This document shows, piece after piece, positions 34,548-36,707 of a DNA stretch of 38,606 bases. Positions within the stretch are counted from its first letter, which is position 1. Every line of letters starts with the position of its first letter. A model generated the notes under the pieces. It searched no databases, was not told the DNA's origin, and was given only the letters and a program-made list of their open reading frames with translations. This DNA comes from a virus: UHGV virus genome UHGV-0211288, one strand, 5' to 3'. Both the position numbers and the translations under genes were made by a program.

Positions 34548-34732
34548 CCCCCACTTTCTATAGCTTTACGGACAATCGGATCTCGATATAACATTTTGTA
34601 CTTGAGTTTTTCATGCTGCAGTTGTTCTTGTAACTGCTCAATTTGTTCCTGTTGGTCCACTATTGTATAGGACATGATAATAACTATAGTCCCCAATAAA
34701 AGTACGGCAATACCAATAATCCTTCTTCTCAT
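34544..34732 (-). CDS. small membrane-anchored protein (62 aa)
   Basis: N-terminal TM helix IIGIAVLLLGTIVIIM followed by a Gln/Glu-rich coiled coil. Confidence 0.4.
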   Translation of the reverse strand: MRRRIIGIAVLLLGTIVIIMSYTIVDQQEQIEQLQEQLQHEKLKYKMLYRDPIVRKAIESGG

Positions 34733-34875
34733 TCAAACACCTCTCGTTATTTAATATATTTTCCAAACATTCCCTGACACTCTTATATAAGCTACTTTCG
34801 CCTATTTTTGAACCACTATGATCCTCTATGATATTCTAACGGCTTCTAATCCTTTGTCATCTTTAAATCAAGTTC

Positions 34876-34904
34876 TTGCCAAAAATGGGGATTGCTGTTA
34901 TATT
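34876..34904 (+). promoter_or_regulatory. sigma-A-type promoter (TTGCCA-N17-TATATT) driving the + strand island
   Basis: Seen directly. Good -35 and -10 with 17-nt spacing, in the intergenic region divergent from the small-membrane-protein operon. Confidence 0.45.
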
Positions 34905-34907
34905 ATT

Positions 34908-35081
34908 GGTGAGGATATAGATCTTACTCCTCGCCAAGCCTGAATCTGGATCATTCGTGATCGAAGTGGGAATTGAGTGCACCCACGTTCCCCCGCGGGC
35001 GGGTTAGCCTAGCGTTTGTCTGCATGGGACGGTATCCATGCTTTGCACTCTTATTTTTTTTGTACATTTTTGGAGGTTAGA
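34908..35081 (+). promoter_or_regulatory. GC-rich multi-hairpin 5' leader (candidate riboregulator, attenuator or small RNA) upstream of ORF 35082-35633
   Basis: Four consecutive hairpins: GGTGAGGA..TCCTCGCC; GATCA-TTCG-TGATC (UUCG tetraloop); GTGGG..CCCAC; GCATGG-gacggtat-CCATGC, the last followed 12 nt later by TTTTTTTT. Local GC is far above the surrounding AT-rich DNA. No protein-coding potential. Confidence 0.35.
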
Positions 35082-35633
35082 ATGAATACAGATTTCTCTC
35101 TCACTTATAATCAGTATCTTTCTAACTTTGATGGAAAGATGGCTATCCTAACAACAAAGTTTGAACCTTTAGATAGGTTTTATATTAAGTTCGATATAAA
35201 GCAATTACCTCACTTATTGGGTCTTCAATACATCTACACCGATCCGCCCCAAACATTATGCGAAATGCTCTGCAACAAGGACATAACTTACGAAAAACTG
35301 CAGCGTCATCAAAATTTCGTGAAAATTAAAGATCGTATCACATTGTTTCCGTATATACTAAATATTTTTTTAGAAGACTATAATGCCTCGGTGATATATG
35401 TCTCTGAGCAAGATCGTCATGGATCTTCAATGAAGTTAGATATCGTGTTTGCCCATCCACATAAAAACAAATATCTGAACTTAGGACTGAGAGAAACGAG
35501 AGAATCAATTTATTCACCCGTAACTTTCTATGTCTTTAAGAAAGGGCGGCATCCAGTTATGCCTTCTTCAAAAAGGGCAAAGGTTGAAACAATAGAATTT
35601 ATCAACCCAACTAGACAAATACAACTCTTTTAA
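35082..35633 (+). CDS. hypothetical protein (183 aa) on the lysogeny strand; candidate accessory, toxin or defence gene
   Basis: RBS GGAGG 5 nt upstream of the ATG at 35082; the track start at 35016 has no RBS. Strong terminator downstream. No motif recognised with confidence. Confidence 0.55.
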   Translation: MNTDFSLTYNQYLSNFDGKMAILTTKFEPLDRFYIKFDIKQLPHLLGLQYIYTDPPQTLCEMLCNKDITYEKLQRHQNFVKIKDRITLFPYILNIFLEDYNASVIYVSEQDRHGSSMKLDIVFAHPHKNKYLNLGLRETRESIYSPVTFYVFKKGRHPVMPSSKRAKVETIEFINPTRQIQLF

Positions 35634-35644
35634 GTTTTAGTAGA

Positions 35645-35670
35645 CCATCGTAAGCGATGGTTTTTTTGAT
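35645..35670 (+). terminator. rho-independent terminator (ACCATCG taag CGATGGT + TTTTTTT)
   Basis: Perfect 7-bp stem with a tetraloop followed by a 7-T run, seen directly. Confidence 0.7.
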
Positions 35671-35725
35671 GTCTGAATTCCGTTATCGCTGACGATTGTT
35701 GAATTAATTATATTTTTCTTTTATC

Positions 35726-35935
35726 ATGATATTTATAAAAGGGGTGAGTACTTTGAAAAAAAGAACCTTACTAAATTTCTATCTATTTATCGCCCTCGTC
35801 AACTTTGTTAGTGCATTACTTTTGGTCTTCATAAACAATGGAAGTACCGGATTAAAGATTGCTAGCTTCTTATTTTTTGTAAACTTTGTCTTGAATATGT
35901 TACTTGCTACTAAACGTTCTAAAGGCAAACTTTAA
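35726..35935 (+). CDS. small membrane protein (2 TM; 69 aa from ATG 35726, or 60 aa from TTG 35753 which has an AAGGGGTGA RBS)
   Basis: Hydrophobic helices LLNFYLFIALVNFVSALLLVFI and IASFLFFVNFVLNMLLA with a basic C-terminus. Confidence 0.4.
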   Translation: MIFIKGVSTLKKRTLLNFYLFIALVNFVSALLLVFINNGSTGLKIASFLFFVNFVLNMLLATKRSKGKL

Positions 35936-35987
35936 GGCTAATTTCTATTAGTCTTTTTTGTTTGCTATTTCGTCGGATAGCTGACTA

Positions 35988-36707
35988 TTATTCAGATAAT
36001 TCGAGCGGAGTGAGAATCTTATTTTCAATCGCTCGTATTGCATTTTCGGTCAAAATTCTTTGCCATCGTTTATTTTTTGGCGACCAACGCATTGCAGCTG
36101 ATTTTAACAAGCCTCTTATATCCTCGGACGGCTTTCCGTTAGTTACGATATAAATTCGGTTATCTTCTAAATCGATGCCATAACCAGCAATTTCTTCGTG
36201 TTCAAGTTCGCTATAAAATGCTTGCCAGCCTTCTTCTTTTGCTTTAGCTTTTCGTTTAGCTTCTACATTTTCTCTTTGTTCGATCAAAACTGGATCAAAC
36301 ATTTTTCTTGTATTATCTAAAAATCTTTCATGCTTCCCATCGTTGGCGTATAGTTCCCTTTCCAACTCATGAATGCGATCAAGTTCACGCTTTTTCTTTC
36401 TAGTGGGATAGTTAGCACCGCCGGAAATCATTACAGATGGAATTGTCGTAGCTTTCAAAATGTTGGTTCGCAACTCAACTACCAATTTGTTGTATTTAAC
36501 AAGCCTTTCATTCAAAGCTTTTTCATTTTCTGGTGTGACGAATGATCTAAAGTCATTTACAAAAGATTCGATATAACTTTCAATCTCCTTATTAAAGTCT
36601 CTTCCTCGGTAAAAAGAAGTCAATTCTTCGTAACGTTGTCCTACTTCTTTCGGAATCTTGTAAACAAGTTCAAAATTTCCTTGTTGCACTTTTTCAAAAG
36701 TTAACAT
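35988..36707 (-). CDS. hypothetical protein (239 aa)
   Basis: Long ORF in the early region; charged, no motif recognised. Confidence 0.5.
   Translation of the reverse strand: MLTFEKVQQGNFELVYKIPKEVGQRYEELTSFYRGRDFNKEIESYIESFVNDFRSFVTPENEKALNERLVKYNKLVVELRTNILKATTIPSVMISGGANYPTRKKKRELDRIHELERELYANDGKHERFLDNTRKMFDPVLIEQRENVEAKRKAKAKEEGWQAFYSELEHEEIAGYGIDLEDNRIYIVTNGKPSEDIRGLLKSAAMRWSPKNKRWQRILTENAIRAIENKILTPLELSE

What the first reader, a model, noticed from the sequence alone, without database searches (positions are those of the whole stretch)
34876..35935. Lysogeny-strand island: promoter, GC-rich four-hairpin leader, 183-aa unknown protein, strong terminator, small membrane protein
An island transcribed opposite to all its neighbours, embedded between early operons, carries its own consensus-like promoter (TTGCCA-N17-TATATT). 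The promoter drives an untranslated leader of about 170 nt whose GC content and stacked hairpins stand out sharply from the AT-rich genome: a UUCG tetraloop hairpin, GTGGG/CCCAC, GCATGG/CCATGC followed by a U-tract. After the leader come a 183-aa protein with a strong RBS, a textbook terminator, and a 60-69-aa two-TM protein. The architecture (structured RNA plus protein, plus-strand orientation, likely expressed in the lysogen) fits a prophage accessory module such as abortive infection, a toxin with RNA control, superinfection exclusion, or a riboswitch-controlled effector. I could not assign the protein to a known family.
Basis: partly seen in the sequence, partly recalled or inferred. Interest (0 to 1): 0.8.

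Follow-up and report, generated by a model that had tools for sequence, protein, structure and literature searches.

The report
Pseudoknotted RNA partnered with phage RNase
An Enterococcus prophage cassette pairs a highly conserved, pseudoknotted small RNA (a distant relative of the uncharacterised Listeria RNA rli62) with a predicted RNA-cutting enzyme; it most likely works like an RNA-antitoxin/toxin defence module, and the same pairing recurs in phages of Listeria, Staphylococcus and Streptococcus.

Summary
The described features are all present. The 183-aa protein does belong to a family: it is a stand-alone PBECR4 domain (Pfam PF18813, a predicted BECR-fold endoRNase) with the family's His (H44) and Thr (T148) invariant.

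The leader is a real structured RNA. An ~85-nt core (34966-35050) lies upstream of every close or mid-distance PBECR4 homologue examined. It is 73-94% identical where the CDS is 58-75%. Covariation supports three helices plus two pseudoknots: 95% of cells paired, 16 of 28 pairs compensatory, 0 of 500 shuffles as good.

A covariance model built from these leaders finds the Listeria phage A500 RNA that Rfam calls rli62, just upstream of the A500 PBECR4 gene. More distant PBECR4 genes sit behind Rfam Bacilli-1 or drum RNAs. None of these RNAs has a known function.

The conserved design is promoter, RNA, terminator, RNase. I think it most likely works like a type III toxin-antitoxin or abortive-infection module (confidence about 0.45). 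It fails type III membership tests: no repeats, and the toxin is not ToxN.

The small membrane ORF is an unrelated neighbouring cassette.

The parts
34876..34904 (+). Promoter: -35 TTGCCA, 17-nt spacer ending in TGT (extended -10), -10 TATATT
   Evidence: Consensus scan, 10 of 12 matches with TG. The same TTGC-N17-TGnTATATT layout is kept in Enterococcus and Tetragenococcus relatives whose flanks differ.
34908..34935 (+). H1: hairpin at the 5' end of the transcript (GGUGAGGA.../...UCCUCGCC). Purine-rich 5' arm, CCUC-containing 3' arm. Sequence varies between loci.
   Evidence: MFE and centroid folds. A hairpin at the equivalent place in all 10 leaders folded.
34949..34962 (+). H2: GAUCA-UUCG-UGAUC hairpin directly 5' of the core. 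Sequence varies, position is conserved.
   Evidence: Every relative has a different hairpin sequence at the same place.
34966..35050 (+). Conserved RNA core (CM match 34964-35052). S1 34966-70/34982-86. P1 34975-81/35044-50, which forms a pseudoknot with S1. PK2 34990-92/35001-03. P2 34995-35000/35007-13 with bulged A35011. J2 GUUUGUCU 35014-21. P3 35022-27/35036-41 with loop GACGGUAU.
   Evidence: CM R1 scores 109 bits here and 44-113 bits in 26 related loci. Covariation: 95.1% paired, 16 of 28 pairs compensatory, 0 of 500 shuffles as good, slid controls 33-55%. RNAalifold. Coordinates.
35051..35061 (+). U-tract (UUAUUUUUUUU) directly after the 3' strand of P1. Inferred intrinsic termination point of a ~145-150-nt RNA. 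Read-through would be needed to express the ORF.
   Evidence: Sequence. A U-run follows P1 in most Enterococcus, Carnobacterium and Streptococcus leaders. Separate canonical terminators occupy this place in Listeria A500 and L090. Termination itself is inferred, not shown.
35072..35076 (+). Ribosome-binding site GGAGG, 5 nt before the ATG
   Evidence: Sequence.
35082..35633 (+). 183-aa stand-alone PBECR4-domain protein (predicted metal-independent endoRNase). H44, R85, D120 and T148 are invariant in the family alignment.
   Evidence: Pfam PF18813, E = 7.3e-11, 43.2 bits against a cut-off of 27. phrog_3446, E = 3e-53. Alignment A3. AF2 model pLDDT 87.5. Active-site rule from PMC5512222.
35642..35670 (+). 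Intrinsic terminator closing the cassette (9-bp stem plus T-run)
   Evidence: Terminator scan. Similarity to phage EG-TP1 begins just after it, at 35678.

Best explanation
The island is a two-component prophage cassette. One promoter drives a ~145-150-nt RNA with two variable 5' hairpins and a conserved double-pseudoknot core. That RNA is a divergent member of the rli62 RNA family. Its closing helix P1 abuts a U-tract, so most transcripts should stop there. The read-through fraction encodes a PBECR4 endoRNase.

I propose it works like a type III toxin-antitoxin / abortive-infection module. The abundant RNA binds and neutralises the RNase, and probably also attenuates its synthesis, because protein binding would stabilise P1 and hence the terminator. 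When RNA supply falls (transcription shut-off by a superinfecting phage, or loss of the prophage), the RNase is freed and cuts cellular and/or phage RNA.

Shown: the RNA fold, its tight conservation, its exclusive linkage to PBECR4 genes, the RNA-terminator-gene layout across clades, and the catalytic-type residues of the protein.

Inferred: toxicity, RNA-protein binding, termination and the trigger.
For: - RNA fold by covariation, including both pseudoknots.
- The RNA core is 73-94% identical where the CDS is 58-75% and the protein 39-81%.
- The core lies upstream, on the same strand, of every PBECR4 homologue down to about 35-40% identity.
- A DNA-pattern scan of 2.9 M viral contigs found the core only next to PBECR4 genes; the other hits were chance matches in coding DNA.
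- The only copy without an ORF is itself decayed.
- More distant PBECR4 genes also sit behind structured RNAs: rli62 in Listeria A500 (142 bits), rli62-like RNAs in Staphylococcus and in L086/L090, Bacilli-1 in Streptococcus, and drum in L078.
- My model R2 hits the A500 rli62 locus at E = 5.7e-5.
- There is a terminator between the RNA and the gene.
- PBECR4 match and invariant His/Thr.
- No conserved protein partner: the downstream ORF is not conserved, and the neighbours differ in every locus.
- One homologue lies next to AbiH.
- Precedents of single, non-repeat RNAs that neutralise non-ToxN toxins from the same leader position: AbiF/RCd22 (PMC12373285) and AvcID (PMC10511110).
- rli62 accumulates as an sRNA in Listeria lysogens (PMC3105390).
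Against: - There is no experimental evidence of toxicity or RNA-protein binding for any member.
- There are no tandem repeats in the RNA, unlike classical type III antitoxins.
- There is no PADLOC hit.
- Lacticaseibacillus-type leaders and L087 lack a U-tract after P1.
- Strict cis linkage is equally expected for a purely cis-regulatory leader.
- Iyer et al. proposed an offensive role for PBECR domains (cutting host or CRISPR RNAs) rather than a toxin-antitoxin role.
Confidence: 0.45

Rival explanations
1. The RNA is a cis-acting riboswitch or attenuator. The pseudoknotted core is an aptamer for a small molecule, or for a tRNA or other cellular RNA. The folded, ligand-bound state forms P1 and terminates transcription. 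Loss of the ligand, for example during phage infection or stress, lets the RNase be made.
For: The core is compact with two pseudoknots, conserved junction nucleotides (J2 GUUGGUC-like in all clades) and a 5'-UTR position. P1 is directly coupled to a U-tract. Weinberg et al. note riboswitch-like complexity for the related drum class.
Against: The RNA is tied to one protein family on mobile elements, not to metabolic or transport genes. Loop sequences diverge between clades along with the protein. Some members lack the terminator. Weinberg et al. judged the terminator-bearing classes improbable riboswitches. rli62 accumulates as a stable sRNA.
Confidence: 0.2
2. The RNA is only an autoregulatory operator, and PBECR4 is not a host-killing toxin. 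PBECR4 would be a phage RNA-processing or host-takeover RNase, as T4 RegB is, that binds or cuts its own leader to limit its own synthesis.
For: BECR-fold RegB cuts GGAG in phage mRNAs, and Iyer et al. suggest mRNA or CRISPR RNA targets for PBECR domains. H1 carries GAGG/CCUC arms. The window copy sits between early and late genes rather than in the lysin-att moron slot.
Against: The cassette has its own promoter and terminator and points against the lytic operons. In Listeria, Staphylococcus and Streptococcus phages it sits in the lysogenic-conversion slot beside integrase, paratox and streptodornase. Some chromosomal copies lie outside prophages, one beside AbiH. An 85-nt double pseudoknot is elaborate for a simple operator.
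Confidence: 0.17
3. The RNA is an independent trans-acting small RNA. It could be a base-pairing regulator, a sponge or a mimic of the 16S 3' end. PBECR4 would then be merely co-transcribed with it, or would process it.
For: It is terminated and has a 5'-hairpin cap, as stable sRNAs do. rli62 is catalogued as an sRNA and is found in secreted RNA. A 12-16-nt copy of the 16S rRNA 3' end occurs in Streptococcus and Lacticaseibacillus-type leaders (0 of 2000 shuffles).
Against: The RNA is never found without a PBECR4 gene except as a decayed remnant. The 16S look-alike is not significant in the window or in many relatives. Conservation is concentrated in paired and tertiary elements, not in a single-stranded seed.
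Confidence: 0.1

Closest known systems
rli62 (Rfam RF01486), a Listeria monocytogenes A118/A500-type prophage sRNA or 5' UTR of unknown function
   Same: Same position: directly upstream of a PBECR4 gene (A500 gp26, Lmo2277-like) in a temperate siphophage. My model, built without any Listeria sequence, hits the same locus (E = 5.7e-5). Same helices S1/P1/PK2/P2 with a bulged base, J2 GUUGGUC and P3.
   Different: The window RNA gets no RF01486 hit even at E <= 10, and helix sequences differ. The Rfam model stops inside P3, so it lacks the 3' strand of P1 and both pseudoknots. A500 has an extra canonical terminator.
Type III toxin-antitoxin systems (ToxIN, CptIN, TenpIN)
   Same: One promoter, a pseudoknotted RNA gene, a terminator, then an endoRNase gene. 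Carried on phages and other mobile elements. Known abortive-infection role (PMC5086642, PMC3401426, listed).
   Different: The RNA here is a single ~150-nt unit, not tandem 34-45-nt repeats. The protein is PBECR4/BECR, not the ToxN/AbiQ fold. Neutralisation and processing are untested.
AbiF-RCd22 (C. difficile prophage) and AvcID: non-classical RNA-antitoxin modules
   Same: In AbiF-RCd22, a prophage-encoded, non-repetitive structured RNA in the toxin's own leader lowers transcription in cis and binds the toxin in trans (PMC12373285). In AvcID, the sRNA AvcI neutralises a non-RNase toxin (PMC10511110).
   Different: Unrelated RNA (no abiF-motif hit) and unrelated proteins (HEPN Abi_2; deaminase).
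Bacilli-1 (RF02931) and drum (RF02958) RNA motifs (Weinberg et al. 2017)
   Same: Both are found directly upstream of more distant PBECR4 genes: Bacilli-1 at 69-82 bits in three Streptococcus phages, drum at 44.9 bits in L078. The Streptococcus leaders keep the pairing between the S1 loop and the 3' end, a GUUAGCC junction, P3 and the U-tract. Drum is described as a complex motif with a 3' terminator and a compelling link to a neighbouring protein.
   Different: The window has no significant match to either model. The Streptococcus RNA is ~60 nt longer. Homology of drum to the window RNA is not established (R2 found nothing in L078).
BECR-fold RNases (RelE/HigB, colicin D/E5, T4 RegB; PBECR domains of polyvalent phage proteins)
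   Different: It is a stand-alone 183-aa protein with an extra helical region. No solved structure matches significantly. Known BECR toxins are neutralised by proteins, not RNAs.

Membership tests
Pfam PF18813 PBECR4 | Profile match above the curated gathering score | tested here: met
   43.2 bits against a cut-off of 27, E = 7.3e-11, residues 18-154. All homologues carry PF18813.
Pfam PF18813 PBECR4 | [quoted passage not shown] 2017) | tested here: met
   H44 (helix 39-45, QLPHLLGL) and T148 (strand, PVTF) are invariant in 25 sequences down to 23% identity.
Pfam PF18813 PBECR4 | BECR fold confirmed by structure comparison | tested here: inconclusive
Rfam RF01486 rli62 | Match to the Rfam covariance model at or above 83 bits | tested here: not met
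   No rli62 hit in window 34700-36100 at E <= 10, and none in the whole window at gathering score.
Rfam RF01486 rli62 | Homology shown by reciprocal model search and shared architecture | tested here: met
   R2, built from the window-type leaders, hits A500 at 1306-1399, inside the 142-bit rli62 match, with 26.8 bits and E = 5.7e-5. Intermediate Staphylococcus and L086-type leaders are hit weakly by both models. All helices thread onto the same architecture.
Rfam RF01486 rli62 | Position immediately 5' of an Lmo2277/gp26-like gene in a temperate phage | tested here: met
   (A500 gp26 is 30-32% identical to the window protein).
Type III toxin-antitoxin | RNA gene directly upstream of the toxin gene, under one promoter, with a terminator between them | tested here: met
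   Canonical terminators in relatives. In the window the terminator is P1 plus U8, which is inferred and was not picked up by the simple scan.
Type III toxin-antitoxin | Antitoxin composed of tandem direct repeats processed by the toxin | tested here: not met
   TRF found no array in the leader at score >= 30.
Type III toxin-antitoxin | Toxin of the ToxN/AbiQ (or CptN/TenpN) family | tested here: not met
   Pfam and PADLOC give no ToxN or AbiQ hit, only PBECR4.
Type III toxin-antitoxin | Toxin is growth-inhibitory and is neutralised by direct RNA binding | not testable with these tools
   Needs expression, rescue and co-purification experiments.
Riboswitch | Conserved aptamer in a 5' UTR coupled to an expression platform | tested here: met
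   Covarying core with P1 abutting a U-tract.
Riboswitch | Association with genes of a ligand-related pathway, usually several gene families | tested here: not met
   The RNA is found only upstream of PBECR4 genes.
Riboswitch | Specific ligand binding | not testable with these tools
   Needs in-line probing or ITC.

The most novel reading that the evidence does not exclude
PBECR4 genes and their leader RNAs form a previously unrecognised, widespread class of RNA-protein toxin-antitoxin / anti-phage modules in Firmicutes prophages. In this class a BECR-fold RNase is held in check by a single, non-repetitive double-pseudoknot RNA. Three orphan Rfam families (rli62, Bacilli-1 and possibly drum) would be the partner RNAs of this one system, and some of them carry a copy of the 16S rRNA 3' end that hints at the toxin's target.
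Probability: 0.35. Interest if true: 0.8.

Novelty: new variant of a known kind. Interest (0 to 1): 0.62.

Why it matters
If the RNA neutralises the RNase, this would add a new toxin fold (BECR/PBECR4) and a new, non-repetitive RNA architecture to RNA-antitoxin systems.

It would also give a function to rli62, an sRNA catalogued in Listeria since 2009, and to the orphan motif Bacilli-1 and perhaps drum.

It would identify a lysogenic-conversion or defence gene pair present in temperate phages of Enterococcus, L. monocytogenes, S. aureus, S. agalactiae and S. suis.

The RNA is small, strongly covarying and tied to one protein, so the hypothesis can be tested directly.

Tried and rejected
- **Direct Rfam assignment of the window leader.** No family matched, even at E <= 10.
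- **tRNA or tmRNA-like element.** None found.
- **Tandem repeats as in ToxI.** None found.
- **Known defence system.** No PADLOC hit. NCBIfam gave nothing meaningful.
- **Thermodynamic test of the leader.** z = -0.38, uninformative.
- **Models R1/R2 on the most distant PBECR4 loci (L009, L078, L089).** No significant hit. I therefore do not claim those leaders are homologous. L078 is a drum RNA. L009 and L089 remain unassigned.
- **Small membrane ORF as a third component.** Rejected.
- **16S 3'-end mimicry as a general feature.** Significant only in some clades, not in the window.
- **Leader peptide.** There is no start codon behind the SD-like GAGG of H1 (by inspection). The 35-aa TTG ORF at 34973-35080 overlaps helices that vary by compensatory changes.
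- **Two 2026 bioRxiv preprints (BECR classification; 'Minerva' ncRNA mining).** These could not be read, so I cannot exclude that they mention this pairing.
- **Supplementary text of Weinberg et al. 2017, which names the protein associated with drum.** Not held.

Full report
**Observation.**
- A promoter: TTGCCA-N17-TATATT at 34876-34904, with TG before the -10.
- A leader of about 171 nt.
- A 183-aa ORF (35082-35633) behind GGAGG.
- A 9-bp terminator at 35642-35663.
- A 69-aa hydrophobic ORF (35726-35935).

All neighbours lie on the minus strand. They are early/replication genes on one side, and an ArpU/sigma-like regulator plus terminase on the other. This is a temperate siphophage.

Leader GC is 43-45% against ~35% around it. 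The leader's folding energy is no better than that of shuffles (z = -0.38), so stability alone proves nothing.

**The protein.** It matches Pfam PF18813 PBECR4 (43.2 bits, cut-off 27) and phrog_3446. It matches nothing in PADLOC.

Homologues are stand-alone proteins of ~170-190 aa in Enterococcus, Tetragenococcus, Lacticaseibacillus, Carnobacterium, Jeotgalibaca and metagenomes. By tblastn they also occur in Listeria, Staphylococcus and Streptococcus phages. An exhaustive HMM search finds 755 clusters at 50% identity.

H44, R85, D120 and T148 are invariant. [quoted passage not shown] H44 and T148 fit that rule on the AF2 model (pLDDT 87.5).

**The RNA is real.** The ~85-nt core (34966-35050) lies upstream of every homologue down to about 35-40% protein identity. 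It is 73-94% identical to the window where the CDS is 58-75% and the 5' hairpin region 52-69%.

A covariance model scores 44-113 bits in 27 loci, 16 of them distinct. On that alignment I counted five elements:
- S1, GUGGG/CCCAC.
- P1, GAGUGCA/UGCACUC. Its 5' strand lies in the S1 loop, so S1 and P1 form an H-type pseudoknot.
- P2, with a bulged A.
- PK2, in which the CCC before P2 pairs with GGG in the P2 loop.
- P3.

95.1% of cells pair. 16 of 28 pairs show compensatory changes. No shuffle out of 500 reaches the observed values. Slid controls pair at only 33-55%. RNAalifold independently finds P1, P2 and P3.

Two hairpins of variable sequence precede the core in all ten leaders folded. There is no tRNA or tmRNA and no tandem repeat.

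**Linkage.** A pattern scan of IMG/VR for the core found it only beside PBECR4 genes. The remaining hits were chance matches in coding DNA.

E. faecalis conjugative plasmids carry a mutated copy with no ORF behind it, lying among transposase fragments.

No protein neighbour is conserved. The 69-aa ORF is absent from L001, whose PBECR4 gene is 99% identical. It is present at 99% nucleotide identity in phage EG-TP1, which lacks the RNA and the RNase. The small ORF is therefore a separate cassette.

**Relation to known RNAs.** The window itself matches no Rfam family. The wider family does connect to Rfam:
- The leader of Listeria phage A500 gp26, a PBECR4 homologue, is Rfam rli62 at 142 bits. 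My model R2 hits the same place at E = 5.7e-5.
- Staphylococcus and L086/L090 leaders are weak hits to both models.
- Streptococcus phage leaders are Rfam Bacilli-1 (69-82 bits).
- One distant homologue sits behind a drum RNA (44.9 bits).

Ten representatives from these clades thread onto one architecture, with every helix fully paired but made of different sequence. The junction GUU(G/A/U)G(U/C)C is kept throughout. I chose these helices by eye, so this is supporting evidence only.

The Rfam rli62 model ends inside P3 and misses the 3' strand of P1.

A terminator separates the RNA from the gene. It is a P1+U-tract in the window type, and a separate canonical terminator in A500 and L090.

**Literature.** rli62 is an expressed sRNA of A118-type prophage regions. 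It is patchily distributed, found in secreted RNA and light-induced, and has no assigned function (PMC3105390, PMC5689173, PMC6786865, PMC6874125).

[quoted passage not shown] Its function is also unknown (PMC5737381).

I found no paper linking PBECR4 to an RNA. Two recent preprints could not be read.

**Mechanism.** The layout is that of type III toxin-antitoxin loci, and of AbiF/RCd22, where a single leader RNA attenuates transcription and binds the toxin (PMC12373285). The shared features are a single promoter, a structured RNA, a terminator, a predicted RNase, no conserved protein partner and carriage on mobile elements. I therefore rank an RNA-antitoxin/abortive-infection mechanism first (0.45).

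[quoted passage not shown] It has no repeats, and its toxin is not ToxN.

The rivals are:
- a ligand-sensing riboswitch (0.20), disfavoured because the RNA is linked to a single protein family;
- a purely autoregulatory leader of a non-toxic phage RNase (0.17);
- an independent trans-acting sRNA (0.10).

**Verdict.** The finding is a real feature and only partly known. Its RNA is an unannotated, divergent member of an uncharacterised Rfam family, and its protein belongs to a named but unstudied family. The new elements here are the pairing itself, the double-pseudoknot fold and the link between three orphan RNA families.

Noticed in passing
L095 ~1322-1337; L094 and L096 ~1306-1320; L008 ~2859-2872; L074 and L075 equivalent positions. 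Window 34929-34935 for comparison.: The 3' arm and linker of the 5' hairpin H1 carries a 12-16-nt exact copy of the 16S rRNA 3' end (ATCACCUCCUUUCUAA) in Streptococcus and Lacticaseibacillus-type PBECR4 leaders (0 of 2000 shuffles). CACCUC is present in some Enterococcus leaders. The match is not significant in the window (CUCCU only). It could be an anti-SD element or a mimic of the toxin's target.
   Followed up: partly
L073 2505-2594 (E. faecalis plasmid LR962543.1, 202174-202263, and three sister plasmids): A decayed copy of the RNA core (71.6 bits, several helix-breaking changes) with no PBECR4 ORF behind it, lying between transposase fragments on ~240-kb conjugative plasmids.
   Followed up: partly
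window 35678-35987: The small two-TM ORF (35726-35935) and its flanks are 99% identical to Enterococcus phage EG-TP1 (PQ571292.1, 2909-3218), where no gene is annotated. The same opposite-strand slot between early genes and the late activator holds different cargo in different phages.
   Followed up: partly
L078 1334-1443: A drum RNA (RF02958, 44.9 bits, above gathering score) lies directly upstream of a PBECR4 gene 29% identical to the window protein. A separate terminator follows it. This may identify the protein partner of drum RNAs.
   Followed up: partly
L094 1342-1407, L095 1351-1414, L096 1342-1407: Rfam Bacilli-1 appears to be only the 5' part of a ~190-nt leader RNA of Streptococcus phage 'Lmo2277-like' PBECR4 genes. 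The loop of its second hairpin (AAGCAC / AAGCGCU) is complementary to the sequence just before the U-tract ~130 nt downstream, and the two covary.
   Followed up: partly
L070 281-364 (minus strand); L013 1-45: IMG/VR contig 3300029751_000004 has a second, partial RNA copy fused to unrelated sequence near its end, and L013 begins with a Nextera adapter. Both are probably assembly artefacts.
   Followed up: no
L091 2325-2408 (minus strand): In Listeria phage A500, another catalogued sRNA, rli34 (RF01466, 75.7 bits), lies antisense in the gap between gp26 (PBECR4) and gp27.
   Followed up: no
L009 2700-2990; L089 ~150-390: The most distant PBECR4 homologues (28-30% identity) also have a promoter-like site, ~200 nt of non-coding leader and a terminator hairpin upstream. 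These leaders match neither my models nor any Rfam family.
   Followed up: partly
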